This document shows positions 1 through 28,743 of a stretch of DNA of 44,297 nucleotides, in pieces. The translations under genes were made by a program, and so were the position numbers. Numbering within the stretch: position 1 is the stretch's first letter; every line of letters begins with the position of its first letter. The stretch is from Treponema sp. (GTDB taxonomy: Bacteria > Spirochaetota > Spirochaetia > Treponematales > Breznakiellaceae), in contig JAITBG010000064.1 in the NCBI GenBank assembly GCA_031283725.1, positions 1-44,297 of the forward strand. The letters are read 5' to 3'. The notes below the pieces were generated by a model. That model saw only the letters and a list, made by a program, of their open reading frames with translations, had not been told where the DNA came from and searched no databases.

Positions 1-161
1 CCGGCCCCGCAAACAAAGCTCACCCAGCCCTGAAACCCCGTCCGCGAACAAAGCTCACCCAGCGTGAAACCCCAGCCCCGCGAACAAAGCTCACCCAGCC
101 CTGAAACCCCGTCCGCGAACAAAGCTCACCCAGCGTGAAACCCCAGCCCCGCAAACAAAGC
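1..161. repeat. Tandem repeat with alternating 35-bp (A) and 36-bp (B) units, 71-bp higher-order period; truncated by window start
   Basis: AACAAAGCTCACCCAGC starts at 12, 47, 83 and 118, with a partial AACAAAGC at 154; spacings 35/36/35/36. A=aacaaagctcacccagccctgaaaccccgtccgcg, B=aacaaagctcacccagcgtgaaaccccagccccgc(g/a). Confidence 0.95.
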
Positions 162-162
162 C

Positions 163-341
163 CCCCCCCTATGGACCCTTCTAAGCGGCTCGGGAACGCA
201 CCCGAAAGCGTTATCGGGGGTGGCAGGGAAACACACCCAGGGGGGACCCCCGGGGGGTTCCCTGGGCGTGTTTCCCTGACAGGACCCCCTAACCCCTTCC
301 CGTGCGTTCCCGAAAACCAAACAAAGGGTCCATAGGGGGGG
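163..341. repeat. ~180-nt nested imperfect palindrome (MITE/REP-like element or structured RNA)
   Basis: Paired arms: 163-180 with 324-341 (18 bp perfect), 190-201 with 302-313 (12 bp perfect), 224-242 with 260-278 (18/19), plus a G/C-rich apical stem. Confidence 0.85.
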
Positions 342-350
342 CCGGGGAGA

Positions 351-397: not shown

Positions 398-865
398 ATG
401 CCGGACGAAAATGAAGGATCGGAAGTATTTAACGGGGAAAAATACCTGATATTTACGATTTTGGGGAAATTCTATACTTTCCCTTCCCGGATAATCAGCG
501 AAGTTACCGCTTTTGATACGGTCTACCCCCTGCCGCTGGTGCCGGAATATGTAATGGGAATCATAAACCGCTATTCCGCGCCTTATGCCCTGGTCGATAT
601 AGGTCTTTTAATACAAAAAACCCCCACCCCCCAGTCTAAGGTTGTGGTCCTAAAGGAGACGGTAGAAAAGATAGCCTTCCTTATTGACGATGTGGTGGAC
701 ATTGTCGATGTGGGTCACTCCGATTTATTAAAAGTCGAACAGGGAGTCGAGGTAAACGACTCCACGGATATCATCGAAGCTTCCTTTGGGTGGCATGATA
801 CTAATGTATTCGTTCTTAATATCCGGCAGATTATCAGCCGGGTGGTAAGCGAATTCAGGGTTTAG
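398..865 (+). CDS. cheW: Chemotaxis coupling protein CheW
   Basis: YLIF...YPLPLVPEYVMGIINRY...IAFLIDDVVDIV CheW pattern; first gene of the che cluster. Confidence 0.85.
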   Translation: MPDENEGSEVFNGEKYLIFTILGKFYTFPSRIISEVTAFDTVYPLPLVPEYVMGIINRYSAPYALVDIGLLIQKTPTPQSKVVVLKETVEKIAFLIDDVVDIVDVGHSDLLKVEQGVEVNDSTDIIEASFGWHDTNVFVLNIRQIISRVVSEFRV

Positions 866-875
866 GGGCCGGCGC

Positions 876-1379
876 ATGAGGTTCTTTTTATGTGCGTTTG
901 GAGCTTTTTCCCTGGGAGTCCCGGTATATGCCGTTTCTTCGCTCATAACCGTGCCCTGGGAAGTGGAACAGATGATTGACCGGGACCGGGATGAAAACAC
1001 CTACTTTTCGATCCCCCATTTCTTCCGGAGCCGGGATCATCAGTCCTGGCATCAAGAGATACGGCATGGCCTTATACTTAAGCCGCTGGTTCAGGAGGTT
1101 CCCCTCATCGGCGGCGGGAACGGTGACAATTTCGGCCTTTCCATAGAAGCGGTTATGGAGAAAAACGGCTTTGCGGATAGGCGGAACGTATTACTGGTAA
1201 CGACGGTAGAAAAGGAAATGGATTTTCCCCGGGCGGAGATACAGCCCCTGCCCTCCGTACTCTCGTTGGGGAATAGGGTCTCTTTCTTTTCGGGAGTCAA
1301 CTTTAGCGGTCCTTTGATGAATATTTTTCTGGATCCGGCCGTACTTGTTCAGCGGATGCTTTCGGCCGAGAAAGGGTAG
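876..1379 (+). CDS. Divergent CheW-like protein
   Basis: N-terminal FLCAFGAFSLGVPVYAVSSL and C-terminal EIQPLPSVL...FFSGV...IFLDPAVLV fit a degenerate CheW fold; operon context. Confidence 0.55.
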   Translation: MRFFLCAFGAFSLGVPVYAVSSLITVPWEVEQMIDRDRDENTYFSIPHFFRSRDHQSWHQEIRHGLILKPLVQEVPLIGGGNGDNFGLSIEAVMEKNGFADRRNVLLVTTVEKEMDFPRAEIQPLPSVLSLGNRVSFFSGVNFSGPLMNIFLDPAVLVQRMLSAEKG

Positions 1380-1380
1380 G

Positions 1381-2394
1381 GTGAGGCCGGTGATAAGAAC
1401 GCTGATAGTGGATGATAGCAGTGTGGTACGTTCGATTCTCAGGGATTTCCTGGAAAGCGATGGTGAATTCACCGTGGTCGGAGAAGCGAAGGACGGCAGG
1501 GAAGGGCTTGAAAAAGCCCGGATGCTTAACCCGGATCTTATCACCATGGATATTGAGATGCCCGACGGCCTTGAGGCGACGCAGGAAATCAGAAAGATAC
1601 TGCCCTCCCCGGTTGTGGCGATCAGCACCCACAATACGGCAAAGATGGCCTACGAGACCACGGTGAAGGGGGCCATGGAATTTTACTCCAAGGATAATTT
1701 TACCGCTAAAATGAATCCGCTCAAGCGGTTTCAGATCCTCGAAGCCCTTAAACAGATTGCGGGAACCAGAAACCGCCGTCCCATGGCTGCGGAGCTCTCC
1801 GGGTACGAGGGGAGAAAAACCGTGGGAAACCGGACGATCCTTGCCGTAGTTATCGCGTCATCCACCGGCGGGCCAAAGGCTCTTACCCGGCTGTGCTCCG
1901 CCATTCCCGGGGAATTCCCGGTACCCCTCATTTTGGTTCAGCATAATACATCGGGTTTTGACCGGGGATTCGTTCAGTGGCTTAACGATTATACCCCCCT
2001 GGAAGTAAAGATCGCCGAAGCGGGAGAATTTCCCCACAGCGGGAAATTATACGTGGCCCCCACGGATAAGCATCTTATCCTGGATGCCAAAGGATTTACT
2101 CTTGATGACGGAGAATTGGTAAACAACCAGAAACCCGCGGCGGATCTGCTTTTTAAGAGCGCCGCCGCTTTGTTTGGTCAGAGTCTTATTTCGGTGGTGC
2201 TTACCGGGATGGGCGCTGACGGCGCCGAAGGAACCCGGTTTGTCAGGAACGCCGGCGGCATTACCATTGCCCAGGATGAGAGCACATCACTGATATACGG
2301 TATGCCAAAAGCAGCCTTTGGCACCGGTTGCGTGGATATGGTCCTTCCTCTGGACTGTATAGCCCATCGCCTTGTCGAATTAACCAAAGTATGA
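1381..2394 (+). CDS. cheB: Chemotaxis methylesterase CheB (REC + methylesterase)
   Basis: LIVDDS...MDIEMP receiver; ASSTGGP, VQH and LTGMGADGA catalytic S/H/D motifs. Start moved to GTG 1381 (1390 also possible). Confidence 0.93.
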   Translation: MRPVIRTLIVDDSSVVRSILRDFLESDGEFTVVGEAKDGREGLEKARMLNPDLITMDIEMPDGLEATQEIRKILPSPVVAISTHNTAKMAYETTVKGAMEFYSKDNFTAKMNPLKRFQILEALKQIAGTRNRRPMAAELSGYEGRKTVGNRTILAVVIASSTGGPKALTRLCSAIPGEFPVPLILVQHNTSGFDRGFVQWLNDYTPLEVKIAEAGEFPHSGKLYVAPTDKHLILDAKGFTLDDGELVNNQKPAADLLFKSAAALFGQSLISVVLTGMGADGAEGTRFVRNAGGITIAQDESTSLIYGMPKAAFGTGCVDMVLPLDCIAHRLVELTKV

Positions 2395-3947
2395 GCGACA
2401 ACGTATTGGACCAACTGTCCTCTTGGGCGGAAAAAGCCCTGGGGATAAAAGCGGGGGAGGATGCTTTGGAAAAACTCCGGGCTTATCTGGAAGAAAATCT
2501 AAACCCTGCTGCATCTAACCTTTCCGGCACTTTTGAGCTGCTCCTTTCCTCCCCCGAAGAACGGTTCAATATTGCCCGTTTTCTTACAATTAATGAAACC
2601 TACTTTTTCCGGGAAGAACCTCATTTTGATCTTTTGCTCAAGAAATTGCTGCCGCAGTTTGCCCGTAGAAAAAAAACTTTGCGGGTCTGTTCCGCGGCTA
2701 CATCCATAGGCTGCGAGGCCTACAGTCTTGCTATGCTGATGGACTATTACAGCAGGACCGTAGAAAAACTGGAGTTTCAAATCGAAGCCTTTGATGTGAA
2801 CCGGGAGGTAATAGAAATTGCCAGGCAAGGACGGTATTCGGAAAATGCGTTTAGGAATGACGGAAACCGCTGGAGATATATCCTGGACCAGTACCTTACG
2901 CCGGATGGCGGGGATTATATAGTCGACAAGAGCCTGAAGGAGCGGATACATTTTTTCCCCCATAACATTATGGACGGTATGGAGCCCCTTTCCTTTGATC
3001 TTATTCTGTTCAGAAACGCCCTGATCTATTTTTCTCCCGAAGGCCGCCGGAGGATACTTGATTCCCTGGTGAAAGCCCTTACCGAAGGGGGAGTCCTGCT
3101 CTTTGGCATATCGGAAACCCCGTCGGTGAGCCATCCTTTTCTAGAGAATAAACGTACTTTGGATACATTTTATTTTCAAAAAACATCCGCCGTCACGGAC
3201 CTGGAGGGTGTAGATATTCTTATGGAAATTCCCTGGGAATCCCGGCGGAGCTCGGATCGGAGAACCGCTGCCCGGAGGGTCGCGGATCGGAGGGATTGTG
3301 AGCTATATCGGCGGATTACGGACCGAATGCCCGGTATCCTCGACCGGAGATCCCAAGCCGGAGACCGCCGCGCCGAATCGCCGCCCAGGGTGTCCGGCGC
3401 GGTATTTCCCCAGTCAGCGAAAGTATCCCCTCTGTTACCGGTACTTGCCGGGGATGCAAATCATACCGGAGACGCAAAAAACATCTCAACCCTCCTTGAG
3501 CAGGGTGAAACCATGACGAAGCGGGTTCTTGAAGCCATTAAGAAGGGAAAAGCGGCGCCTCAGGAGGACGAGCTCATTGCGGCGGTCATCTGCCTTCTCA
3601 GCCTGGAGGATTTTGCCGGGGCAGAAACGGTCCTTTCCTTTGCCGAGAAAAAACAGGTATCGGTCTTTACTAAGTTCCTTCGGGGGGAATATAATTACCT
3701 TTCAAATAAAACCGCTCTGGCGGAGACATACTACAAAGAAACTACCGCTTCGGATAACGCTTTTTGGCCCGGTTTTTATAGAATGAGCCTTTTGGCGGCG
3801 GAAGGGAACCGTACTGCTTATGAGTATAAGATAAAAAAGGCCCTGGAAAGCATAGATTTGGGTAAGGAACTTTCTTATGAATGTTTCATTGGGGGGTTTT
3901 CGCCGGATTACTATCGGCGCATCCTCAAAAAGCGCCTAAACGATTGA
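2391..3947 (+). CDS. cheR: CheR methyltransferase with DRR-repeat linker and C-terminal TPR-like region
   Basis: LTINETYFFRE, SAATSIGCEAYSLAM, FDLILFRNALIYF. ATG 2391 overlaps the cheB stop (ATGA). ~250-aa C-terminal extension. Confidence 0.9.
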   Translation: MSDNVLDQLSSWAEKALGIKAGEDALEKLRAYLEENLNPAASNLSGTFELLLSSPEERFNIARFLTINETYFFREEPHFDLLLKKLLPQFARRKKTLRVCSAATSIGCEAYSLAMLMDYYSRTVEKLEFQIEAFDVNREVIEIARQGRYSENAFRNDGNRWRYILDQYLTPDGGDYIVDKSLKERIHFFPHNIMDGMEPLSFDLILFRNALIYFSPEGRRRILDSLVKALTEGGVLLFGISETPSVSHPFLENKRTLDTFYFQKTSAVTDLEGVDILMEIPWESRRSSDRRTAARRVADRRDCELYRRITDRMPGILDRRSQAGDRRAESPPRVSGAVFPQSAKVSPLLPVLAGDANHTGDAKNISTLLEQGETMTKRVLEAIKKGKAAPQEDELIAAVICLLSLEDFAGAETVLSFAEKKQVSVFTKFLRGEYNYLSNKTALAETYYKETTASDNAFWPGFYRMSLLAAEGNRTAYEYKIKKALESIDLGKELSYECFIGGFSPDYYRRILKKRLND

Positions 3948-3959
3948 TAAGGAGCGGAT

Positions 3960-6068
3960 ATGATCTATAAAAACTTGAAGATTACCACTAAGCTGGTTTT
4001 TTCAAGCACCGTATTTATTCTGCCCATCGCATTGATGTTGTTTCTTATAATTTCTAACGCTGATTTGTCCATAGGAAAAGGCAGCAACGAGCGGATGGGA
4101 ATTGGATGCCTGCGTCCTATTGCCGGTCTGCTGAGGATGGTGCCCATGCACCTCAGGGCAGTATTGGAACAGAATCCAGCCGGCGGGGATGCCGGCCGTC
4201 TTGATCAGGAGATCGCCCTTTTACTTGGCGAGTTAATTACAAATCTTGGAGAAACCGGGGATAAGCCAAAATTAGGAAATGTTTCCGGCCGGCGCTATGT
4301 TTCCGGGTTGGATCTTGAAAACAGTTGGAACCAGATGCGGGAAATTCGGGGCGATCAGAGTGTCGCCCTCGCAAGATACAATGCCTTCACCCGGGACCTG
4401 TGGGATCTGCTTGCCTACATTGGCGATGCTTCCAATCTTGTGGGGGATCCGGAATTGGAAAGTTATTATTTTATCCAACTCAGCCTTGATGTCCTTCCCC
4501 GAATCCAGGAACGGCTCATTCAGATAAGTAACCTGGTGCATATATCCCATACCCGGGGAACGATATCCCGGGAAGATCGTCAACAATTACAAGCCTATAT
4601 AACCCTCTTCAGCCTGTCCGATACCCCCCGTCTGCGATCCTCCTTTAATGCGGGACTGGCGCAGATTGAAAATCGTCCCGGCCAGGACCCTCTTCCCTAT
4701 GAGGAACTCGTTTTAAGGGGTGATACCTACACCGCTTCCGCGGAAAGATTTATCGGAATTCTTGAACTGTTCCTTGCCGGGGAAGAGCCGAAGGTTTTAG
4801 AGACCCCGGAAGGTTCCGAAGCTTTGGAAATACCGGAAAATACCGGCATAACTTCCACGGAGCTTTACTATGCCGAAGTACTAACCGCCGCGGTCCAGGC
4901 CTCTACCGCTACGTATCGTGTGTGGCTTGGGGCCCTGGATCAGCTTGATGTTCTCCTGCAGCAAAGGATCAGCGGATACCGGGATTCATTATACAAGTCC
5001 CTTATATTCGCGGTCCTCACTGCCCTTATCGCTTTTATCATTGTGATTTTCAGTTCCGCTGCTATAACCAGATCTACCAGAAGCCTGAAACAGCTCTTTA
5101 AGAGTTTGGATAATAACGATCTTTCCCTGGAGCTGACGGTTCATTCTCAGGACGAATTCGGAGAACTGACGGCCGCCTTTAATCGTTTCCTCAGTAAATT
5201 GCGAAACGCTTTTGTTTCCTTTAACCGGGATGCTTCCCGGGTTTCAACTTCGGTATATGATCTTTCCGCGGCCGCCAAGGAGCTTACCACCACCGCCAAT
5301 GAACAGTCCGCCAGTGTTTCTGAAATTGTCAGTACCATGGAAGACAATAAAAATATGTCCGGCCAGGTGGCGGGAAAAACCGCGGAGGTGGCGGACCTCG
5401 CTGTGAAGACCCGGGAGTTAAGTAGGCGGGGGACAGAATTACGGGATGCCAATCAGGATATGATGCAGGATATCCGGGACCAGAATGATAAAATTATCGA
5501 AGAGATAAAAAACCTTGCGGACATGCTCAGCCGGATCAGCGAGGTTATCGGTATCATCGACGGCATTGCGGATCAAACTAAGCTCATTGCCTTTAACGCA
5601 TCTCTGGAAGCTTCGTCTTCAGGTGAAGCGGGAGCCCGGTTCGCCGTGGTTGCCAGCGAAATACGGCGTTTTGCCGATAATGTGGTGGATTCCACCACAG
5701 AGATAAAGCAGAAGATCGAAGAAGTGCAGGCTGCCTCCAAAACTTTGATTATGGAAGCTAATAACGGTTCAATTCAGATCGATGAAGGCTACGATAGGAT
5801 GGTTGAACAGAAAGAGGTATTTGAAAATATTGTGGTTAATTCTGAGAATGTGGCCATCCGTTCCCAGCAAATTTCTGATCTGAGTAAACAACAGGAATAT
5901 GCTTCCTTGCAAATATTCGCCACCCTGCAGGAAATATCCGCCGGGGTCAAACAATTTGTGGTTGCCACCGCTTCTGCATCAAAAATAGCGGATAATCTTA
6001 ATGTCATGTCCCAGGATCTTCGTGAAACCGTGGGGCTGTACCGTACCAATACAGGAGATTCAAAATGA
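3960..6068 (+). CDS. Methyl-accepting chemoreceptor (TM - large periplasmic domain - TM - HAMP - MA)
   Basis: Two hydrophobic segments, HAMP (DEFGELTAAFN), hairpin tip IADQTKLIAFNASLEASSSGEAGARFAVVASEIRRFA. Confidence 0.93.
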   Translation: MIYKNLKITTKLVFSSTVFILPIALMLFLIISNADLSIGKGSNERMGIGCLRPIAGLLRMVPMHLRAVLEQNPAGGDAGRLDQEIALLLGELITNLGETGDKPKLGNVSGRRYVSGLDLENSWNQMREIRGDQSVALARYNAFTRDLWDLLAYIGDASNLVGDPELESYYFIQLSLDVLPRIQERLIQISNLVHISHTRGTISREDRQQLQAYITLFSLSDTPRLRSSFNAGLAQIENRPGQDPLPYEELVLRGDTYTASAERFIGILELFLAGEEPKVLETPEGSEALEIPENTGITSTELYYAEVLTAAVQASTATYRVWLGALDQLDVLLQQRISGYRDSLYKSLIFAVLTALIAFIIVIFSSAAITRSTRSLKQLFKSLDNNDLSLELTVHSQDEFGELTAAFNRFLSKLRNAFVSFNRDASRVSTSVYDLSAAAKELTTTANEQSASVSEIVSTMEDNKNMSGQVAGKTAEVADLAVKTRELSRRGTELRDANQDMMQDIRDQNDKIIEEIKNLADMLSRISEVIGIIDGIADQTKLIAFNASLEASSSGEAGARFAVVASEIRRFADNVVDSTTEIKQKIEEVQAASKTLIMEANNGSIQIDEGYDRMVEQKEVFENIVVNSENVAIRSQQISDLSKQQEYASLQIFATLQEISAGVKQFVVATASASKIADNLNVMSQDLRETVGLYRTNTGDSK

Positions 6069-7570
6069 CAAATATGGAAGAACGTATCAGCAGGGATGAA
6101 CGGGACGGAGAGGTTATTATTAATTACTTTCGTTTTTCTCTGGCAATGATCTATATGATTGGGCTGGGGGTAATTTCCCTGGTCAGAAAAATGGAAGGGT
6201 TTGATTATATCCCCTGGCGGGCTCATATAGGAACATCGGTGTTTGTGGCCTATTCCATAGTACTTTTTTTCTATCTGCGAAAAAAAGAATTGTTATCCTC
6301 AAAATTTAAATTTGTCTGTGTCATCCTTGATATGATCATTGTATCCGCAGGTATTTTTGTTACCGCAACTTACCCGGAGAATTGTCTCCCCATATCTTTC
6401 CTTTCCATTCAGGCGCTTATCCTGATGATACTTATTGTCCTGGGCGCCTTCCGTTATAACATACCCTGTGCCATATTTTCCGGTATCTGGGCATCCATAA
6501 CCTACGGCTTTGTGATCTTCTTTCACCGTAATGTTATTGATATTCCTTATATAGCTCTGTACAACGGCGAGGCCCTTCAGGTAGCTTTTCCCCTCTATAA
6601 CGAAGCTTTCAGGCTCATAGGATTTACCCTTGTGGGGATTGTTACCGGCATGGCCTGCAGGAGGCACCTTGCGCTCTTTAATAATATGATAAAATCCGAA
6701 TCCGCCGCCGCCGCCGTCGCCGCCCACACGGTTACCCAGACCAAGGACATCGCTGGGGCTATACAGAAATCCACAGATGAAATATTTTTCTCTTCCAAGG
6801 ATATTTACACCACCGCCAACAACCAGGCTGCCAGTGTGCAGGAGATTGAAAGTACCATCAATGAGAATACCCAGATTGCAACGTATATTGCGGAAATGAC
6901 CGGCAGCGTCGCTACCATCGCTACAAAAATGGAAGAGGATGTTATACAGGGTTTTTCAGTTCTTGAAAACAATGTGAACAAGATGGGAGATATTAAGGAA
7001 AAAAACGACGGAATAATTTCCGGGATCATAAACCTGGGGAACAAAATTGCTAAAATACGGGATATAGTCAGAACCATCAATACCATAACTGACCAGACTA
7101 AGGTAATAGCTTTTAACGCCGCCCTGGAAGCGGCAAGCGCCGGGGATAAGGGGAAACGGTTCGCCGTGGTTGCCAGCGAGGTAAACCGCCTCGCGGACGA
7201 TATTGCCGCCCTCACCAAACAGATCCGGGACCAGGTGGAGGAAATACAGGATTCCTCCTCATCCCTAATAGTTTCCAGCGAGGAGGGAGCGGATAAGATC
7301 AGCGAAGGGCTCAAGTTGATTAAGGACCTTGAGGATGTTTTTAAGGAAATACGATCCGGAGCGGAGATGACATCCGCACAGGCTCAGACCATTACCGTAT
7401 CGACCCAGAAGCAGCAAAAATCTTCGGAGCAAATCAATATAGCCATTTCGGATATTTCAAAGGGGTTGAATAATTTTATTCACTCAACCGAGGTGGCTAC
7501 ATCTTCTGCGGAAGGACTTACGGAGATGATCCGGGAACTGGAGTCTATCCTTGAGACTAAAAACAATTAA
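6065..7570 (+). CDS. Methyl-accepting chemoreceptor with multi-TM integral membrane sensor, no obvious HAMP
   Basis: About 6 hydrophobic helices in the first 200 aa; ITDQTKVIAFNAALEAASAGDKGKRFAVVASEVNRLA signalling tip. Confidence 0.9.
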   Translation: MTNMEERISRDERDGEVIINYFRFSLAMIYMIGLGVISLVRKMEGFDYIPWRAHIGTSVFVAYSIVLFFYLRKKELLSSKFKFVCVILDMIIVSAGIFVTATYPENCLPISFLSIQALILMILIVLGAFRYNIPCAIFSGIWASITYGFVIFFHRNVIDIPYIALYNGEALQVAFPLYNEAFRLIGFTLVGIVTGMACRRHLALFNNMIKSESAAAAVAAHTVTQTKDIAGAIQKSTDEIFFSSKDIYTTANNQAASVQEIESTINENTQIATYIAEMTGSVATIATKMEEDVIQGFSVLENNVNKMGDIKEKNDGIISGIINLGNKIAKIRDIVRTINTITDQTKVIAFNAALEAASAGDKGKRFAVVASEVNRLADDIAALTKQIRDQVEEIQDSSSSLIVSSEEGADKISEGLKLIKDLEDVFKEIRSGAEMTSAQAQTITVSTQKQQKSSEQINIAISDISKGLNNFIHSTEVATSSAEGLTEMIRELESILETKNN

Positions 7571-7578
7571 GGCGTTTT

Positions 7579-9921
7579 ATGGCAATTGACAGGGGAAAAT
7601 ACATCGGTAAATTTATCGATGAGGGCGTTGAAAACATCAGGGTTGTAGAATCGCTGCTCTTTGAAATAAAAGACGGTGTTTCGATGGATGATGATCTTGC
7701 AACTCTGCTGCGGGCTCTCCATACTCTTAAAGGATCTGCCCGGATGCTGGAGTTTAAGCGAATTGAATCCCTTACCCATGCCCTGGAGGGAGTTTTTGTG
7801 GCAGTCCGGGAGCAGCGCATCGACCTTACGGATAATGCCATGCGGCTTGCCCTGGCGGCACTGGATACCCTTAAATCGGGACTGGGGACGGTGCAAAAGA
7901 CCCAGGATGACGATATTGATATCCTTGCCTTTGAAAAGGAACTTGCGGCTCTGGCGTCCAACGAGGAATTCCTGGTGCCCGTAAGTCCCGATGCCGAGGG
8001 TGACGCAAAAAAACCGCCCCATATATCGGATCAGAAAACCGCGGCGGCCGATGCGGCCCCTGAGCCCCCGACGGATGGAAAGAAAACAAGGAAGAAAGGC
8101 GAAGAAAACCTTGTTGTCAGCAGCCGGGCTATTGAAGAACGGAGCAGCCGTTCCGTAGAAAAAACGGATTCAAGAGAAGCGGGTAGTCAGGTAGCAAAGA
8201 GGGAGAAGCAGCAGGATGCGAAATCGGAAAGCATCAGGATTTCCCTTTCAAAGATAGATACCATAATTAAAAGCATTGCCTCTCTGCAATCCCTGGAGAT
8301 AGCTTCAAAAACTATTTCCATGGAAACAGAAATATTGCATGAATTGATAAAAGCATATTCCCGGGCCATTAAGGCGTCTAAAATGGTGGACCCCGTATTG
8401 GTAAATCAGTTTAGAAATGTGGAGCAGCTCAGCGGTAAAATAAATTCCAAGCTTAGAAATTATTCCATTGATGTGGGAAATAATACGCGGAATGCTTACG
8501 ATGGAGTAATATCCCTGCGGATGCTGCCGCTTTCTACAATCTTAGAAACGTATCCCCGCTATGTTTTTGAAATGTCCGCGGAGCTTGGGAAAAAAGTACA
8601 GCTTAGCATCGAGGGGAGTGAAAACGAGATCGATAAGAATATTATCGAAATACTTTCTGATGTTTTCCTCCACATGATCCGTAATGCGATAGACCATGGT
8701 ATTGAGCCGCCGGGGGATCGGCTTGCTCTGGGAAAAGATGAAGCGGGGCAGCTTGTAATTAATTGTACCCGTGAAAGCGGAAATATGAAAATTATAATTT
8801 CCGACGATGGCCGTGGCATTGATCTTGAGGCCATACGGAAAAAAGCGGTGGCCCAGGGATTGGTAACCGCCGCGACAGCAGCTTCTCTGGGCCAGGATGA
8901 TCTCACCGGTTTTATATTCCAAAGCGGCTTTACCACATCTAAAGAAATTAACAGCATTTCCGGCCGTGGAGTAGGTATGGATGCGGTACGCGCCAGTATA
9001 GAGCAGCTCAAGGGGAGTATCCTGGTGGAGAGTGTTCCCGGTCAGGGTACGGTGTTTACGATCCTTGTTCCCCTTTCCATCGCTTCTCTTATGGGCTTTC
9101 CTATAGTCTGTGGAGGAATGAAATTTATAATCCCCTCAAATTTTGTTGATACCATCCTTCTTATAAGCCAGGAAGATATTATTACGGTTGTCGATAGGCC
9201 AGGGATAAGATTTGAAAATAGGATTATAAAACTGTATTATCTTAACCAGATACTGCATCTTAAGACCGAGGGCGATCAGAATAGCAGACGGGCCCTTTTT
9301 GTGGTTATCATCCATGCCTACGATGATGTTATTGCCCTGGTAATCGATAGCATCAGCAGTATGCGGTCGGTGATCCTTAAATCAATGCCCGACTTTATGG
9401 AGAGTATCCCCGTTTTTTCAGGGATGGTGTTAAGCGAAGATTATGAGATGGTACCTGCCCTCCACATGCCAACGGTAATACGAATGGCAAAACGTCTTAA
9501 GACCATTGATATGAAGAAAAGACATATTGAATATGAGAAAATGCGTAAATCTGTCTTGGTGGTGGACGATTCTCTGCCCACCAGGGACATTGAAGGAGAA
9601 ATTCTCAGATCCGAGGGCTATAAGGTAGATACCGCAGCGGATGGAGCGGAAGCCCTGGCAGCGGCAAAGAGCAGGTCCTACGATCTCATCTGTACGGATC
9701 TTAATATGCCCATAATGGACGGCTTTATGCTTACCGAAAATGTGCGTAAGAATGAAGACCTGTCCCGAATTCCTATTATTGTTATTTCCTCAAGGGAGAG
9801 TGAAGAGGACCAGAAGCGGGCGGCCATGCTTGGCGCAAACCGCTATATTATAAAAAATTCATTTAATAACTACAACTTGCTTACGGCGGTTAAGGAACTT
9901 ATCGGAGATGCCAATGGATAG
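7579..9921 (+). CDS. cheA: Hybrid CheA-REC histidine kinase
   Basis: Hpt LRALHTLKGSARM; HMIRNAIDHGIE, DDGRGID, SGRGVGMDAV; CheW-like P5 domain; C-terminal REC (VVDDS...TDLNMPIMDG). Confidence 0.95.
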   Translation: MAIDRGKYIGKFIDEGVENIRVVESLLFEIKDGVSMDDDLATLLRALHTLKGSARMLEFKRIESLTHALEGVFVAVREQRIDLTDNAMRLALAALDTLKSGLGTVQKTQDDDIDILAFEKELAALASNEEFLVPVSPDAEGDAKKPPHISDQKTAAADAAPEPPTDGKKTRKKGEENLVVSSRAIEERSSRSVEKTDSREAGSQVAKREKQQDAKSESIRISLSKIDTIIKSIASLQSLEIASKTISMETEILHELIKAYSRAIKASKMVDPVLVNQFRNVEQLSGKINSKLRNYSIDVGNNTRNAYDGVISLRMLPLSTILETYPRYVFEMSAELGKKVQLSIEGSENEIDKNIIEILSDVFLHMIRNAIDHGIEPPGDRLALGKDEAGQLVINCTRESGNMKIIISDDGRGIDLEAIRKKAVAQGLVTAATAASLGQDDLTGFIFQSGFTTSKEINSISGRGVGMDAVRASIEQLKGSILVESVPGQGTVFTILVPLSIASLMGFPIVCGGMKFIIPSNFVDTILLISQEDIITVVDRPGIRFENRIIKLYYLNQILHLKTEGDQNSRRALFVVIIHAYDDVIALVIDSISSMRSVILKSMPDFMESIPVFSGMVLSEDYEMVPALHMPTVIRMAKRLKTIDMKKRHIEYEKMRKSVLVVDDSLPTRDIEGEILRSEGYKVDTAADGAEALAAAKSRSYDLICTDLNMPIMDGFMLTENVRKNEDLSRIPIIVISSRESEEDQKRAAMLGANRYIIKNSFNNYNLLTAVKELIGDANG

Positions 9922-11797
9922 TACTGTTTCACAGGATAAACGGATTCTTCTTTTTGAGGATTCGGATATTTTTGCCGATATGGTTTTGGAATTTCTCGAT
10001 GCCCATGGGTATCAAACGAGACGGGCGGTAAACGGTTTTGAGGGAATCAAAGCAGTATACAGTTATAAACCCCACATCATTATAACCGATGTGGAGATGC
10101 CTCTCTTTAAGGGCTACCAGGCAACCCGCCTGTTGAAATCCCGGAAAAGCACCAAATCTATTCCTATTATTATGTTCACGAGCCTTAGTGAAATTAAGGA
10201 TAAATTCTGGGGAACCCAGGCCGGGGCGGATTTTTATATCGAAAAATCACCGGAAAATTTTGCGGAGCTGCAAAATAGCATAGCCCGGCTTTTAGCGGAA
10301 GCGCCGGAGCCGGATTTTGCGGTGATTGAGCACGAAGGAAAGCGGATCGATGATAATGCCCTGATAGAAACGGTAAACAATCTCCTGGATGCCAAGCTTT
10401 TTCAGACCACGGTAATTGGTATGTTAGCGGAACTTTCCGCTAAACTTGGCTCCCTGGATGATATAGTCAAAGGCTTTTTTGATCTACTTAATTATGTCTG
10501 CGAAGCGGAAATTGTAATGGTGATGATAAAGAGTGAGGATAATTCCCTGGTTGTTTATTCCTCCAATAGTGCAGGTTTTAATGATCTGACTACCGAAGAT
10601 TTTAACGCCATCAGCATTGCTGATTTTGATGACCTGTTTCCTGACTTTCAAGTTGTCACAAGAAAAACAAAGGATTTTTATCCTCCGGGGGATAAGAAAA
10701 AACGGATCGAATCCTATATCAGGGTTCCCCTTTTGGCCGGGGGACAGAAATATGCTACCGTGCATATTGGCAATTCAATAAAAGAATATTTTTCCCCGCT
10801 CATCATGGAGAACCTGGATGTTTTTTTGAAGGCCGCTTCCCCGATTATTGCAAACGCCCTGTCCATGCTGGAGATGGAGGAACTGCAAAAGAAAACTAGG
10901 GTAGCCTTTGCCCGCTATGTTCCCGAGGATGTGATTGATGAAGTTATTCATAGATCATTCGGAACTGCGATCCAGAGTGAAACAAGAAATGTGGTGGTAT
11001 TTTTCCTGGACATACGGAATTTTACCAAGATATCAGAAAACTCAAGCGCCTATGAACTTGTGGGTTTTTTGAATACTTTCTTTTCGATCATGGGAAATGA
11101 AATAATCGCCGAAGGCGGACATATCGATAAATTTATCGGCGATGCCATAATGGCCATATTCGGCGCCCCCCGCCCTCTGTCGAATGCCCACGCCTGCGCA
11201 ATTCGTGCGGCGGTGAATATGATTAAAGCCCTGGCAAAAGTGGATACCACCCAACTCATCCTGCCCGAAAAAGGCCTTGCCGTAGGAATCGGCATTAACA
11301 GCGGGGAATGCGTTGTGGGGAATATTGGTTTCCAGGACCGGATGGACTATACCGTAATCGGCGATACTGTAAACCTCGCATCCAGGCTTGAGGGGGTTAC
11401 TAAAATGTACCGCCACCCGATTATTGTTTCCGAAAATATGTCTGAGGCTGCCCGGGACCAGTTTATATTTAGGAAAATCGATACCGTTCGGGTAAAGGGA
11501 AGAAACAGTCCCGTGGGACTCTATGCGGTATATGCTGCCTATGCCGGAGAAGCGGGGGCCGAAGATTTTCAGGATGCTGCTTCAGCCCTGGTTATTGACC
11601 GGACGTTTCTTGATTTTTATGAAAAGGGGCTTAGGCTTTTTTATATGAAGGAGTGGGAAACCGCCAAGACCTACTTTAACAACGCCCTGCAAATAGATGA
11701 AGGGGATTATCTTTCCAAGCTCTATCTGGAACGGATTGAAGAATACAGCCTCCTAGGCGAACCCGTGGACGGCGCAGTAACCCTGACCGAAAAATAA
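9908..11797 (+). CDS. Response regulator - class III adenylate cyclase (REC, GAF-like, cyclase, TPR-like tail)
   Basis: REC (FEDS...TDVEMP); cyclase motifs FLDIRNFT, DKFIGDAIMA, GIGINSG, DYTVIGDTVNLASRLE. Confidence 0.92.
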   Translation: MPMDSTVSQDKRILLFEDSDIFADMVLEFLDAHGYQTRRAVNGFEGIKAVYSYKPHIIITDVEMPLFKGYQATRLLKSRKSTKSIPIIMFTSLSEIKDKFWGTQAGADFYIEKSPENFAELQNSIARLLAEAPEPDFAVIEHEGKRIDDNALIETVNNLLDAKLFQTTVIGMLAELSAKLGSLDDIVKGFFDLLNYVCEAEIVMVMIKSEDNSLVVYSSNSAGFNDLTTEDFNAISIADFDDLFPDFQVVTRKTKDFYPPGDKKKRIESYIRVPLLAGGQKYATVHIGNSIKEYFSPLIMENLDVFLKAASPIIANALSMLEMEELQKKTRVAFARYVPEDVIDEVIHRSFGTAIQSETRNVVVFFLDIRNFTKISENSSAYELVGFLNTFFSIMGNEIIAEGGHIDKFIGDAIMAIFGAPRPLSNAHACAIRAAVNMIKALAKVDTTQLILPEKGLAVGIGINSGECVVGNIGFQDRMDYTVIGDTVNLASRLEGVTKMYRHPIIVSENMSEAARDQFIFRKIDTVRVKGRNSPVGLYAVYAAYAGEAGAEDFQDAASALVIDRTFLDFYEKGLRLFYMKEWETAKTYFNNALQIDEGDYLSKLYLERIEEYSLLGEPVDGAVTLTEK

Positions 11798-24431: not shown

Positions 24432-24531
24432 GGTACTATTGGTACAGATATGAGAGAATTTATTAAGCGAGCCCTGCAAAAACTCAACAAGATGACCGGG
24501 GAGCAGATTCGGGAGCTGCTTTATTCCGCCG
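24432..24531 (+). repeat. Right copy of 100-bp direct repeat
   Basis: Matches 16048-16147. Confidence 0.95.
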
Positions 24532-25679
24532 CTAGCGAAATAGACCGCCTGGAAACGGTACTGGATTCTATCACCGAGGGTATTCTGGTCTGCGATACCG
24601 AACACAACCTGGTACTGGCCAACAAATATGCTAACCGGATGCTTCCCATCAACGCGGAAGAGCAGGGAAAGACGCCGCTGTGGCTTATGGTCCAGGACGA
24701 AAAGATACGGGATTTTTTTGAAATCACCTTAAAAACCGGGGACCGGGTGGAAGATCGGGAATTCGACGTGGAGATCAAGGGAATATCCCGGCTTCTCAGT
24801 ATTAGTGTGCTTCCCCTGGTAAAAGATCGCCAGGTTACGGGCTCCCTCATCTATGTGGAAGATATAACCGAGAAGCGGAGTAAAGAAGCGCAGCTGCGGC
24901 GGGTGGAAAACCTCGCCAGCCTTACCACCCTGGCTGCCGGGGTGGCCCATGAGATTAAGAATCCCCTTGGATCCCTTTCCATACACATCCAGTTGATCCA
25001 GAAAGCCATGGAGGCAAACAAAGAAGTCTATTACACCGCCCGCCCAGAGGGAACAGACTCCCAGAGCAGCGATTCTTGTTCTTATTTTGAAAAAATGGAC
25101 AAGTACATCAGCGTAGTAAACGAAGAAGTGGATCGCCTTAACCGTATTGTGGTAGATTTTTTGTTTGCGGTTCGTCCAATGAACATGGAATTCCGGGAAG
25201 GGAATATTAATTCACTTATAGAAGAAATGGCCGGGTTTGTCCGCTACGAGTTGGAAGAATCGAACATCAAATGTGTTCTGGAACTTGACAAGAACCTTCC
25301 CAGGGTAGACTTTGACCTGCGGTACATGAAACAGGCCCTGCTTAACCTTATAAAAAATGCTATGGCCGCTATGAACGGGGGGGGACGGCTGACCCTAAAA
25401 ACCGAAGGCCGGGATGGGGAAATCCAAATCATTGTGTCGGATACCGGTATAGGGATATCCGAAGAAAACATTCCAAAAATATTTGAACCCTATTTTACCA
25501 CCAAGGAAACAGGCTCCGGCCTTGGGCTGACCCTGGTCTTTAAGATCATCCGGGAACACCGGGGGGAGATCTCCGTAAAATCAAAGGAAGGGGAGGGGGC
25601 CAGTTTCAAAATTACCCTGCCTATACCCCAGAAGGAACGGCGGCTCATCACCTTTGAAGGCGGAAAAAATGCAGTTTAA
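24450..25679 (+). CDS. Cytoplasmic PAS-histidine kinase (NtrB/Hk2-like)
   Basis: PAS (VLDSITEGILVCD...LAN), H-box AHEIKNPL, NLIKNA, DTGIGI, FEPYFTTK, GSGLGL. Confidence 0.93.
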   Translation: MREFIKRALQKLNKMTGEQIRELLYSAASEIDRLETVLDSITEGILVCDTEHNLVLANKYANRMLPINAEEQGKTPLWLMVQDEKIRDFFEITLKTGDRVEDREFDVEIKGISRLLSISVLPLVKDRQVTGSLIYVEDITEKRSKEAQLRRVENLASLTTLAAGVAHEIKNPLGSLSIHIQLIQKAMEANKEVYYTARPEGTDSQSSDSCSYFEKMDKYISVVNEEVDRLNRIVVDFLFAVRPMNMEFREGNINSLIEEMAGFVRYELEESNIKCVLELDKNLPRVDFDLRYMKQALLNLIKNAMAAMNGGGRLTLKTEGRDGEIQIIVSDTGIGISEENIPKIFEPYFTTKETGSGLGLTLVFKIIREHRGEISVKSKEGEGASFKITLPIPQKERRLITFEGGKNAV

Positions 25680-27036
25680 AATTCTGATAGCTGATGATGA
25701 AAAAAATATCCGGGAAGGGCTCGCCGCATCACTGGAGATGGACGGGTACCTTGTCGAAACCGCCGCGGGCGGTGATGCGGCTTTCAAGCGTTTCCAGAAG
25801 GGCGACATCGACATGGTCATCACCGATTTACGGATGCCGGGCTTGAGCGGAGAGGAACTGCTCAAACGGGTGGATTCGGAAACACCGGGTATTCCGGTGA
25901 TTGTCCTCACCGGTCACGGTACGGTGGAAAACGCCGTGGCGGCCATGCGGAACGGCGCCTACGACTTCCTCACAAAACCTGTGGACCTGGATCACCTGTC
26001 TTTGCTCGTAAAGCGGGCGCTCCAGAGCCGGGAACTGTTCCTTCGCCACCGGCGGTTGGAGGAGGAACTGGAACACCGGAAACAGTTCCGGACCATGGTT
26101 GGTACCAGCGCCCCCATGCGCCATGTCTTTGATACCATAAACCGGGCCGCCCCTTCCAAGGCTTCCATCATCATCACCGGTGAATCCGGGGTAGGGAAAG
26201 AACTGGTGGCCGACGCCATTCACGATCTCTCCCCCCGGAAAAACAAGCCCCTGATCAAAGTCCACTGCGCCGCCCTGGCCGCCAGCATTCTGGAGAGTGA
26301 ACTCTTCGGCCATGAGAAGGGGGCCTTTACCGGCGCGGTAGCCCGTACCCGGGGCCGCTTCGAACTTGCCCATGAGGGGACTCTCTTTCTGGATGAGATC
26401 GGCGAAGTCGATCAGAACATTCAGATAAAATTGTTGCGGGTACTTCAGGAAAAAAAGTTTGAACGGGTAGGGGGGGAAGAAACCATCGAAGTAGACGTCC
26501 GCATTGTGGCCGCCACTAACAAGGATCTCAAGGCGGAGATAAAAAAGGGCAATTTCCGGGATGATCTCTATTATCGTCTCAGCGTGGTCAATATCCATGT
26601 GCCCCCCCTGCGGGAACGCAAGGACGATCTCCCCCTGCTCATCACCGCATTTCTGCGAGAATTTGCCGAAGAAAACGGTAAAACCCTGGAGGGAATAGAC
26701 GACAAAGCCCGGGCCGCCCTCTACGCCTACGACTGGCCCGGTAATGTCCGGGAACTGCGGAACTGCATGGAAAGCGCCGTGGTCATGACCCGGAGCGCAG
26801 TGATAACCGCGGAGGATCTGCCCCCCACGGTCCGGGCCCAAAACGATTCAAGCTGGATCAGAATCCCCCTGGGCTCTACTTTGGAGGAAGCGGAACGTAT
26901 CGTCATCCGGGACACCCTCTCCGCTCATAAGGGCAACAAGAGCAAGGCCGCGGAGGTCCTCGCAGTGGGCCGCAAAACCCTGCACCGGAAACTGGCGGAG
27001 TGGGGAGAGGAAGGGGAAGAAAAGAATGAGAAGTAA
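25669..27036 (+). CDS. Sigma54-dependent response regulator (NtrC/Rrp2-like)
   Basis: REC, GESGVGKE, ESELFGHEKGAFTGA, LFLDEIGE, WPGNVREL, Fis-type HTH. Start ATG 25669. Confidence 0.95.
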   Translation: MQFKILIADDEKNIREGLAASLEMDGYLVETAAGGDAAFKRFQKGDIDMVITDLRMPGLSGEELLKRVDSETPGIPVIVLTGHGTVENAVAAMRNGAYDFLTKPVDLDHLSLLVKRALQSRELFLRHRRLEEELEHRKQFRTMVGTSAPMRHVFDTINRAAPSKASIIITGESGVGKELVADAIHDLSPRKNKPLIKVHCAALAASILESELFGHEKGAFTGAVARTRGRFELAHEGTLFLDEIGEVDQNIQIKLLRVLQEKKFERVGGEETIEVDVRIVAATNKDLKAEIKKGNFRDDLYYRLSVVNIHVPPLRERKDDLPLLITAFLREFAEENGKTLEGIDDKARAALYAYDWPGNVRELRNCMESAVVMTRSAVITAEDLPPTVRAQNDSSWIRIPLGSTLEEAERIVIRDTLSAHKGNKSKAAEVLAVGRKTLHRKLAEWGEEGEEKNEK

Positions 27037-27335
27037 AGAACCGCGACAGGGCGGGCTAAACTACCCGTTTCCCCGGATGAGCACGATTTTGACCAGGGTA
27101 ACTATCCAGGAGTGGCTTCTCCGATAGGTTATCTTAGGGGATTTGCACCCCATAGTATCTTCTTGTGCCCTTGGTCCCACTCCTTCAGACTTTATAGATC
27201 ACTATGCAGGCCGCCCTGTGCTATGCCTTGCATGAATCGTGGGGGAGTTTTTGCTCTTGTCCGGGGTGAGGATTTCATCGACGATGGGGGAGTAAACTGA
27301 GAATTCTGTAGTTTATTGGATTTATTGGATTTATC

Positions 27336-27363
27336 TTGACAAAGGGCTATACTGGAATATAGT
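27336..27363 (+). promoter_or_regulatory. Candidate sigma70 promoter for rpoN
   Basis: TTGACA 27336-27341, 16 bp, TATAGT 27358-27363; AGGAG before TTG start. Confidence 0.5.
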
Positions 27364-27381
27364 TCTAATAGGAGTCAATTC

Positions 27382-28743
27382 TTGCAACTTCAGCGCCCGT
27401 CTATTGTTCAAGAGCAGCGTCTCAGGATGAATCCCCAGCAAATTCAGGCTATCAAGCTGATGGGGCTCCCTGTCGTTGATTTACGGGAAAAAATAGAGGA
27501 AGAAATTGAACGGAACCCCGCTCTTGAGGTTTTTGAAGATCATACCGTACTCTCCCTGGATGAGGCCTATACTCCCCGGAAGGAGGAGTATGATTATTTC
27601 GAAACCAGTTCAGATTCCGGTTTTGTCCGTAAAGGGGGGGATGAGGAGAGCTCGGAGCGGCACAAATTCATCGAAGGCGCTCTTTCCCGGCCCGAAACCC
27701 TCCAGGAACATCTCCTCTGGCAGTTCAAACTTGAGCCCCTGGATGATGAGCTCCGCCGGATCGGGGAACTGCTCATCCAGAACCTGAACGAAGACGGTTT
27801 CCACAAAGAGCCCGTGAATCTGCTCCTTAAACATGAGAATCCCGCCCTTATTGTCAAAGCTATGTCTATTATCCGCTCCTTGGACCCGGTGGGCGCCTGT
27901 ACTGCGGATTACCAGGAAAGCCTTCGGGTTCAGGCAGGACTCCTTCCTGACGCCCCTCCGGGGATGATCGATGTTTTGGGCTACCTGGAACAGCTTGAGC
28001 GGGGCAAATTTGGGGAAGTCGGCCGGGAGTTGGGCCGTACCGAAGAGGATCTGCGCCTCTGTTTTGAACGTATCAAGGAGCTTTCCCCCTTCCCGGGCCG
28101 GCGTTTTGCCGCCGATACTACCCGGTATGTGGTTCCCGATGTTCAGGTGATCAAAAAAGAGGGGGAGTTCGTCATCATCCTTAACGATGAGGAGATACCG
28201 GTTCTTGGGATCAACCCCTTCTTTATGAAAATTGCCGGAACGCCAGGTGGAAAGGGTAAACCTGTCCGTGACTTTGTCAAGGAAAACATTAGGGAAGCCC
28301 GGTGGTTTATCCAGTCGATCAACGAGCGGAACCATACCCTTCTCCGGGTTTCCCGGGCAATAGTGGAATTTCAACGCGCATTTTTTGTGAATGGTCCCAA
28401 ATATATCGCCCCCCTGACCCTGCGGGACATAGCCCAGGAACTGGGGCTTAATGAATCCACTATTTCCCGGACATCCCGGGGCAAGTATATGCAAACCGAG
28501 TGGGGGATTTTTGAAATTCGTCATTTCTTTACCAATTCTATCAGCGGCGCCGGTTCCCGGGGTTCGCAATATTCCAAAGAGGGGGTTAAGGAGATAATAA
28601 AGGAGCTTATCACTACAGAAGCCCGGCATTTTTCGGATAAAGAAATCACGGAGATCCTTTCCAGGAAGGGAATCCTTTTGGCCCGGCGCACGGTTGCTAA
28701 ATATCGCAGTGAATTGGATCTGGGATCATCGTATACCCGATAA
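27382..28743 (+). CDS. rpoN: RNA polymerase sigma-54 factor
   Basis: Q-rich region I, NPALE, HTH ESTISR, RpoN box ARRTVAKYR. Confidence 0.97.
   Translation: MQLQRPSIVQEQRLRMNPQQIQAIKLMGLPVVDLREKIEEEIERNPALEVFEDHTVLSLDEAYTPRKEEYDYFETSSDSGFVRKGGDEESSERHKFIEGALSRPETLQEHLLWQFKLEPLDDELRRIGELLIQNLNEDGFHKEPVNLLLKHENPALIVKAMSIIRSLDPVGACTADYQESLRVQAGLLPDAPPGMIDVLGYLEQLERGKFGEVGRELGRTEEDLRLCFERIKELSPFPGRRFAADTTRYVVPDVQVIKKEGEFVIILNDEEIPVLGINPFFMKIAGTPGGKGKPVRDFVKENIREARWFIQSINERNHTLLRVSRAIVEFQRAFFVNGPKYIAPLTLRDIAQELGLNESTISRTSRGKYMQTEWGIFEIRHFFTNSISGAGSRGSQYSKEGVKEIIKELITTEARHFSDKEITEILSRKGILLARRTVAKYRSELDLGSSYTR

What the first reader, a model, noticed from the sequence alone, without database searches (positions are those of the whole stretch)
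398..11797. Wsp-like chemosensory operon whose output is an adenylate cyclase
Seen: eight co-oriented, tightly packed genes: cheW, cheW-like, cheB, cheR with tail, two MCPs, cheA-REC and a REC-cyclase. There is no stand-alone CheY or CheX and no flagellar gene. Established: this parts list mirrors Pseudomonas Wsp (WspA-F plus WspR), an 'alternative cellular function' system, but WspR has a GGDEF output. Here the output domain is a class III cyclase with both metal Asp (FLD, GD), the ATP-selecting Lys (DKFIGD), Thr in DYTVIG (class IIIb type) and N/R in NLASR. Inference: a receptor array with methylation-based adaptation directly phosphorylates an adenylate cyclase, giving chemosensory control of cAMP in a spirochaete. 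I know of no characterised example with this exact layout.
Basis: partly seen in the sequence, partly recalled or inferred. Interest (0 to 1): 0.85.

Follow-up and report, generated by a model that had tools for sequence, protein, structure and literature searches.

The report
Chemoreceptor operon wired to cAMP synthase
A termite-gut spirochaete carries a second chemotaxis-type operon that ends in a gene for a predicted cAMP-making enzyme instead of a motor switch; this kinase-enzyme pairing is kept across many spirochaetes and likely lets a receptor array set cAMP levels directly, an output that appears untested in the laboratory.

Summary
The 82%-identical CheA of Treponema primitia is published as class ACF (non-motility), and the genome has a separate flagellar-type set. 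The cyclase follows cheA directly in 37 of 37 informative loci found through the cyclase. In reverse, 28 of 44 CheA-REC places in 401 spirochaete genomes are followed by it. Catalytic and ATP-selecting residues are intact. The phospho-acceptor Asp is kept in 36 of 36 loci outside one clade. In that rumen-type Treponema clade the receiver has decayed (full site in 0 of 11) while the gene stays beside cheA, so phosphotransfer is not the only possible coupling. Best reading: CheA phosphorylates the cyclase and sets cAMP (inferred, about 0.7). It works like Wsp but is not Wsp. A REC-cyclase output in an ACF cluster was tabulated once in 2012, and my ten searches found no experimental study. Verdict: new variant of a known kind, conserved and testable; interest 0.52.

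The parts
398..865 (+). cheW1, coupling protein (155 aa)
   Evidence: Pfam CheW E 2e-12; conserved in first place
876..1379 (+). cheW2, divergent CheW-fold adaptor (167 aa), counterpart of the second Wsp CheW
   Evidence: no Pfam hit; hhalign to CheW 95.6%; AF2 model matches CheW/CheA-P5 chains
1381..2394 (+). cheB, REC + methylesterase (start 1381 or 1390; longest ORF from 1345); strain-level 6-bp in-frame deletion just after the phospho-Asp
   Evidence: Pfam; alignment; deletion also in an independent assembly at depth 43 and absent from a relative
2391..3947 (+). cheR with linker and TPR-like C-terminal domain
   Evidence: Pfam CheR E 8e-39; tail conserved; only weak, below-cutoff TPR-type hits in 4 of 5 orthologs and none in the window protein
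3960..6068 (+). MCP1: two TM helices, all-helical NIT-like periplasmic domain, HAMP, 40-heptad-length signalling domain
   Evidence: NIT is an Atlas lead only (score 0.94, no Pfam hit)
6065..7570 (+). MCP2: membrane-embedded N-terminal domain of at least five TM segments, no periplasmic domain, no HAMP detected
7579..9921 (+). cheA-REC: Hpt (H48), dimerisation, HATPase, CheW domain, receiver (D707); no P2; ACF class by orthology
   Evidence: 82% identical to P0121, listed as cheaACF
9908..11797 (+). soluble REC (D61) - helical linker - GAF - transducer helix - class IIIb cyclase - TPR-like tail (629 aa)

Best explanation
The eight genes form a self-contained, ACF-class chemosensory operon whose kinase CheA likely passes its phosphate to the receiver domain of the cyclase encoded next to it, which is predicted to switch ATP-to-cAMP synthesis. 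Shown: the parts list, the ACF class of the CheA ortholog, intact phosphorylation and catalytic residues, and conserved linkage. Inferred steps: (1) MCP1 (periplasmic ligand) and MCP2 (membrane-level cue) build an array with CheW1, CheW2 and CheA that is separate from the flagellar array, because their signalling domains are about 60 residues shorter than those of the genome's other receptors. (2) CheA autophosphorylates H48 and transfers phosphate to D61 of the cyclase, to CheB for adaptation against CheR, and to its own receiver as a sink or brake; no CheX or CheZ is in the operon. (3) D61~P rearranges the dimer through the helical linker, GAF and transducer helix and most likely activates it, as reported for cyanobacterial CyaC; I put activation at about 2:1 over inhibition. 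(4) The GAF may add a small-molecule input. (5) cAMP would be read by cNMP-binding proteins, of which the genome has two, adjacent on contig C156. The signal and the behaviour controlled are not known; a lifestyle switch, not motor bias, is the likely use.
For: ACF class of the 82%-identical ortholog (PMC10782961 Table S2). A separate P2-bearing CheA with CheW-CheR-like and CheX-like genes, plus FliM, lies elsewhere in the genome. Cyclase directly after cheA in 14 of 14, 6 of 6 and 17 of 17 loci with upstream DNA. Of 80 cyclase loci from a broad scan only 7 had che genes, all spirochaete members of this family. In the family, CheA is in 10 of 36 and the cyclase in 11 of 36 genomes, the same 10 plus one where the cyclase starts its contig. 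Reverse: 28 of 44 CheA-REC places. The cyclase domains beside these CheAs form one clade (25 rows, support 99) with subgroups like those of the CheA tree. Phospho-Asp in 36 of 36 and full D+T/S+K in 35 of 36 loci outside one clade; REC has the lowest dN/dS in the protein, 0.06. K408 aligns with the Cya2 position where E488K turns a guanylate into an adenylate cyclase (PMC5995499). Precedents: WspE phosphorylates WspR (PMC8552884); receiver phosphorylation activates CyaC (as cited in PMC3009899).
Against: No biochemistry exists. In 11 loci of one Treponema clade the cyclase receiver has the Asp in 2 of 11 and the full site in 0 of 11, yet stays beside a CheA whose own receiver is intact in 10 of 10, so linkage does not need phosphotransfer. 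In Dictyostelium ACR, conserved receiver Asp residues had little effect on activity (PMC3009899), so conservation is not proof. In one family genome only cheA and the cyclase remain together (L035), and one CheA of the clade has no cyclase next to it (L187). The cyclase is split in 2 of 11 family genomes (L033, L040). My own CheA trees do not group this CheA with Wsp-type CheAs (few references, long branches). The genome has two more class III cyclases, so cAMP is not controlled by this operon alone.
Confidence: 0.7

Rival explanations
1. The cyclase belongs to the pathway but is controlled mainly without its own phosphorylation: by docking on CheA (or CheA-REC~P) or by a ligand of its GAF domain; D61 is a minor tuner or phosphate sink.
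For: Pseudo-receiver clade: full site in 0 of 11 with linkage kept and CheA-REC intact in 10 of 10; one nested clade, support 99. The GAF is conserved (dN/dS 0.12). ACR precedent.
Against: Outside that clade the site is kept in 35 of 36 loci across several families. Its rapid decay once lost suggests that structure alone does not hold these residues. The GAF lacks the Lys and Asp of the recalled NKFDE cyclic-nucleotide motif, and no ligand is known.
Confidence: 0.15
2. The cyclase is only co-transcribed; another kinase phosphorylates it, and this CheA signals to a receiver encoded elsewhere, such as the stand-alone CheY-sized protein on contig C174.
For: The genome has 25 receiver-containing frames and several hybrid kinases. 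One CheA of the clade lacks the cyclase (L187).
Against: 46 of 46 loci have cheA immediately upstream and none holds a small stand-alone receiver. The pair survives loss of the other che genes (L035). CheA lacks the P2 CheY-binding domain that the genome's other CheA has.
Confidence: 0.08
3. The pathway works as proposed but the product is cGMP, or both nucleotides.
For: The best sequence matches among solved structures are Cya2 of Synechocystis (a guanylate cyclase) and its engineered variant. Sequence rules for class IIIb specificity have exceptions (recalled).
Against: Lys at the specificity position in 38 of 41 rows, the rest truncated or masked, and Thr/Ser at the second position. Lys at this place makes Cya2 ATP-specific.
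Confidence: 0.05

Closest known systems
Pseudomonas Wsp system (WspA-F + WspR) and the Burkholderia WspH variant
   Same: ACF class; two CheW, CheR with a tail, CheA-REC without P2, CheB, receptors of similar signalling-domain length, and one multidomain response regulator as output.
   Different: Output is REC-GAF-class III cyclase, not REC-GGDEF or REC-kinase. Order is W-W-B-R-MCP-MCP-A-output against MCP-W-R-W-A-B-output. Two receptors with other sensor domains. CheA is only about 33% identical and not in the WspE clade in my trees.
CheR-TPR cluster of delta proteobacterium NaphS2 (D8FCI6) in PMC3447774 Table S2
   Same: ACF-type cluster whose response regulator is listed as REC + mononucleotidyl cyclase.
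   Different: One table row from another phylum, with no GAF noted, no nucleotide assigned and no experiment. I could not fetch it; my GAF profile found no full-length ortholog in 301 genomes of the phylum of G451, a Desulfurivibrionaceae genome.
Pseudomonas aeruginosa Pil-Chp pathway with CyaB
   Same: A chemosensory array controls cAMP through a class III cyclase (PMC13599512); CyaB is among the best structural matches.
   Different: Tfp class and indirect: PilG~P modulates a separate cyclase. Here the receiver is part of a soluble cyclase encoded in the operon.
Cyanobacterial CyaC (Spirulina/Anabaena)
   Same: Class IIIb cyclase with receiver and GAF domains, activated by receiver phosphorylation (as cited in PMC3009899).
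   Different: Uses its own or a phytochrome-type histidine kinase, not a CheA array with methylation-based adaptation; other domain order.

Membership tests
ACF-class chemosensory system | CheA assigned to the ACF class by the class-specific models | tested here: met
   By proxy: the 82%-identical, syntenic ortholog (782 aa, TREPR_RS11400) is cheaACF in PMC10782961 Table S2. The class models themselves were not available.
ACF-class chemosensory system | CheA = Hpt, dimerisation, HATPase, CheW, receiver; no P2 | tested here: met
   same architecture as the ACF rows
ACF-class chemosensory system | Multidomain response regulator in the cluster, no stand-alone CheY | tested here: met
   criterion from PMC3447774
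ACF-class chemosensory system | CheR fused to TPR | tested here: inconclusive
   Conserved helical tail with a TPR-like pattern; Pfam TPR-type hits below cut-off in 4 of 5 orthologs, none in the window protein; tail absent in several loci
ACF-class chemosensory system | 40-heptad chemoreceptors (label recalled, not from a call) | tested here: met
   MCP1 HAMP end to tip 141 aa; 146 and 140 aa after the tip; Wsp-type references 140-158; two other receptors of the genome 169
ACF-class chemosensory system | Output other than flagellar or pilus motility | not testable with these tools
   needs mutants or reconstitution
Wsp system proper | REC-GGDEF (WspR) or REC-kinase (WspH) output | tested here: not met
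   output is REC-GAF-cyclase
Wsp system proper | wspA-B-C-D-E-F-R gene order and WspE-clade kinase | tested here: not met
Spirochaete flagellar (F2) chemotaxis system | CheA with P2, CheW-CheR-like fusion, CheX | tested here: not met
   these lie on contig C163, not in this operon
Class IIIb adenylate cyclase | Two metal-binding Asp, Lys plus Thr/Ser specificity pair, Asn/Arg transition-state pair (subclass rule recalled) | tested here: met
   D368, D412, K408, T482, N489, R493; fold match to Cya2, CyaB and CyaC, target TM 0.85
Class IIIb adenylate cyclase | Converts ATP to cAMP | not testable with these tools
   needs an assay

The most novel reading that the evidence does not exclude
An old, spirochaete-specific chemosensory subclass couples a receptor array straight to a dedicated soluble adenylate cyclase, and in the rumen-type Treponema branch the coupling has become phosphorylation-independent: CheA or its phosphorylated receiver controls the cyclase by binding a pseudo-receiver. 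A chemoreceptor array would then regulate an enzyme without phosphotransfer to it, and the two branches would form a natural pair for showing how.
Probability: 0.25. Interest if true: 0.75.

Novelty: new variant of a known kind. Interest (0 to 1): 0.52.

Why it matters
ACF pathways are common but few have a known output; the model case makes c-di-GMP. This one would be a direct array-to-cAMP pathway, simpler than Pil-Chp, where the link to the cyclase is indirect. All parts lie in one operon, the output enzyme is soluble, a cultured carrier exists (T. primitia), and cAMP is easy to read in E. coli, so both the wiring and the receptors' ligands can be tested. It would also give a first handle on cAMP signalling in termite-gut and rumen treponemes. 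The clade with a decayed receiver makes a sharp question testable: can a CheA control an enzyme without phosphorylating it?

Tried and rejected
Complex prediction of the CheA Hpt domain with the cyclase receiver gave no answer (score 0.08, mark 0.32) and is not used either way. No RNA holder was listed for the window. My CheA trees with 5-7 outside references could not place the kinase in a class (long branches), so the class rests on the published table. Independent recruitment of cyclases, tested on the CheA tree: one search rejected one clade (p 3e-8) but had left the nested cyclase-less L187 outside the group; without L187 it is not rejected (p 0.21), and two further tests were skipped for time. 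Only the cyclase tree and gene order support separate recruitment in family f22. cAMP binding by the GAF: motif degenerate, no close solved structure. Nitrate sensing by MCP1: Atlas lead only, no Pfam NIT hit in 6 of 6 sensor domains. MCP2 membrane domain: no family. No conserved flanking partner such as a phosphodiesterase or CRP. Promoter and terminator scans were uninformative. The TPR-like tail is not special to this family: 32 of 78 control cyclases have it. The CheB deletion as an assembly error is unlikely. Spread outside spirochaetes: only two weak partial GAF hits in 301 genomes of the phylum of G451; the broad scan covered 3 of 64 parts, so this is not shown absence. The paper that defines the ACF class (Wuichet and Zhulin 2010) was not held.

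Full report
OBSERVATION. The window is a whole contig of a 2.5-Mb, 79%-complete genome. A termite-gut metagenome holds 97% of the operon's sampled words and may be its source. The closest named homologs are from Treponema primitia and other Treponema or Spirochaetaceae records. Eight ORFs run on the + strand from 398 to 11797 with gaps of -14 to +12 nt. Pfam assigns CheW, nothing, REC-CheB, CheR, HAMP-MCP, MCP, Hpt-HATPase-CheW-REC and REC-cyclase. The unassigned second gene is a divergent CheW: profile match 95.6%, and its AF2 model (pLDDT 79) matches CheW and CheA-P5 chains with E down to 2e-6. Against a congeneric genome all eight genes have dN/dS of 0.09-0.26.

THE CYCLASE. The 629-aa protein has no membrane segment. 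The AF2 model (pLDDT 82, pTM 0.48, so domains are reliable and their arrangement is not) shows a receiver, a helical linker, an alpha/beta domain at about 160-325, a long helix into the catalytic domain and a three-helix tail. The middle domain is a GAF: 13 of 29 orthologous segments hit Pfam GAF_2, best E 1e-6, though the window's own does not, and the profile retrieves many long proteins with repeated matches, as multi-GAF proteins would give. The catalytic domain matches Cya2, CyaB and CyaC at target TM 0.85. D368, K408, D412, T482, N489 and R493 are present; K408 is in 38 of 41 aligned rows, the rest being truncated or masked. K408 aligns with the position where E488K converts Cya2 from guanylate to adenylate cyclase (PMC5995499 passages). 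The subclass label IIIb rests on recalled rules. The receiver has E17, D18, D61, T91 and K113.

CLASS OF THE PATHWAY. A 782-aa CheA from a syntenic operon is 82% identical to the window's and is recorded as the T. primitia ZAS-2 protein. Table S2 of PMC10782961 lists the 782-aa T. primitia CheA, with this architecture, as class ACF, along with CheAs of T. bryantii, T. saccharophilum, T. brennaborense and two Leptospira. The genome has a second kinase with P2, followed by a CheW-CheR-like fusion and a CheX-like gene, a second cheR-cheB pair, FliM and a stand-alone CheY-sized receiver. The operon's receptors have about 140 residues per signalling arm, like Wsp-type receptors, against 169 for two other receptors of the genome (the script failed after printing this table). 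My own trees could not place the kinase among classes.

LINKAGE, FORWARD. Full-length orthologs of the cyclase occur in 11 of 36 genomes of the family and 4 of 24 of the rest of the order. A stricter REC-GAF query hit 18 of 401 genomes of the phylum, the window's included (it missed the divergent rumen-type forms). Where upstream DNA exists, cheA-REC is the gene immediately before: 14 of 14 (one more locus starts inside the cyclase), 6 of 6 and 17 of 17. The full eight-gene order is kept in 8 of 9 informative family loci; in L035 only cheA and the cyclase remain. Other families mostly put the receptors first: MCPs-W-W2-B-R-A-cyclase. Control: of 80 cyclase loci from a partial genome-wide scan, 7 had che genes, all spirochaete members of this family; two non-spirochaete REC-cyclases had none. 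In the family, CheA is found in 10 of 36 genomes, all among the 11 with the cyclase.

LINKAGE, REVERSE. CheA-REC matched 44 places in 39 of 401 genomes. Directly after it: REC-GAF-cyclase in 28 (window included; one cut by a contig end, one broken by an N run), a pair of cyclase genes in 1, a multi-receiver cyclase in 1, cheB and then a REC-cyclase without GAF in 4, and no cyclase in 10. Nine of the 10 have other gene orders and other outputs, such as kinase, PAS or GGDEF proteins; one, L187, belongs to the clade. The cyclase domains linked to this CheA clade form one group of 25 rows with support 99, apart from 19 control cyclases, the genome's two others and the f22 enzymes. Its subgroups resemble those of the CheA tree, which fits long joint inheritance; kin are not independent, so this is not a statistical test.

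THE RECEIVER SITE. Outside one clade the phospho-Asp is kept in 36 of 36 loci and the full D+T/S+K site in 35 of 36. In 11 loci (nine from family f3 and two Treponema assemblies, one from a roe deer reticulum) the Asp survives in 2 and the full site in none, while CheA's receiver is intact in 10 of 10 and CheB's in 8 of 11. Their CheAs form one nested clade (10 rows, support 99), so this looks like one secondary loss. It cuts both ways. The site can decay, so its retention elsewhere points to use. But the gene pair survives without it, so another coupling is possible. Dictyostelium ACR shows that conserved receiver residues can matter little (PMC3009899 passages).

MECHANISM. Shown: parts, class by orthology, residues, linkage. 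Inferred: MCP1 (two TM, NIT-like helical sensor as a lead only) and MCP2 (five or more TM, no HAMP, no known family) signal through two CheWs to CheA. CheA~P feeds D61 of the cyclase, CheB and its own receiver. The signal passes through linker, GAF and transducer helix to the catalytic dimer, most likely activating it, as for CyaC. CheR and CheB adapt the array; MCP1 has three candidate methylation motifs in the signalling domain and MCP2 one (loose recalled pattern). The genome has two cNMP-binding proteins, adjacent on C156, as candidate readers, and two other cyclases. I give 0.70 to direct phosphotransfer, 0.15 to phosphorylation-independent control, 0.08 to mere co-transcription and 0.05 to cGMP.

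WHAT IS KNOWN. It works like Wsp (PMC8552884 passages) and is a member of the ACF class, but it fails the Wsp tests of output and gene order. PMC3447774 (abstract, passages and the whole Table S2) lists one CheR-TPR cluster, in delta proteobacterium NaphS2, with a REC-mononucleotidyl-cyclase regulator, so the idea is in print as a table row. Chemosensory control of cAMP is known from Pil-Chp, through a separate cyclase (PMC13599512 passages). Ten searches of the held library showed no paper on this spirochaete operon or on a CheA that phosphorylates a cyclase; for most hits I saw only the listing. PMC9239204 and PMC4821796 (passages) added nothing. Subscription papers are largely missing, and Wuichet and Zhulin 2010 with its Table S1 of ACF regulators could not be read and may bear on novelty. 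Earlier notes of this scan describe a two-gene version in another spirochaete and looser cases elsewhere; these are unchecked leads.

VERDICT. A real, conserved and intact ACF operon with a dedicated REC-GAF-cyclase output. New variant of a known kind: anticipated in silico, apparently uncharacterised, and easy to test. The decayed-receiver branch is the most surprising addition. Interest 0.52.

Noticed in passing
L050, L051, L185, L186, L188-L193, L198: Treponema clade in which the cyclase receiver is a pseudo-receiver (full site in 0 of 11) although the gene stays directly after cheA, usually flanked by several receptors.
   Followed up: partly
L194:11807-13081, L196:11898-13196, L199:11625-12908, L200:11373-12653: Family f22 has another CheA-REC cluster (R-W-MCP-A-B-output) ending in a receiver fused to a distant, class IIIa-type cyclase with ATP-type residues; the cyclase tree points to a separate recruitment.
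   Followed up: partly
L206:5401-7419: CheA-REC followed by a cyclase with two clear and one degenerate receiver, outside the main cyclase clade.
   Followed up: no
   Followed up: partly
window 3255-3370 (CheR residues about 289-325 from the 2391 start): Four to eight DRR/ERR repeats, mostly five residues apart, in the CheR linker of the four genomes of the window's genus only. Arginine-rich repeats of this kind can bind c-di-GMP (recalled, untested).
   Followed up: no
window about 1564: In-frame 6-bp deletion in cheB two residues after the phospho-Asp loop motif; only in the window among 11 aligned CheBs, confirmed in an independent assembly. It may weaken adaptation in this strain.
   Followed up: partly
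window 1-345: A 35/71-bp tandem repeat (4-161) and a palindromic dispersed repeat (about 171-345) found on 15 contigs lie upstream of the operon; a copy also lies on C156, the contig with the cNMP-binding genes.
   Followed up: no
P0132, P0133: The same REC-GAF front end is fused to a histidine kinase-REC-Hpt (Treponema sp.) or kinase-REC-cyclase output, so the output module can be swapped. Neighbourhood not seen.
   Followed up: no
L127, L128 (G347); L190, L198 (G377): Two genomes each carry two copies of the operon.
   Followed up: no
L033, L040: The cyclase gene is split by a stop or frameshift in two family genomes; error or pseudogene not resolved.
   Followed up: no
window 24450-28743: A kinase, a sigma-54-type activator and an RpoN-like gene lie together on the same contig (read from translations; not scanned).
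   Followed up: no
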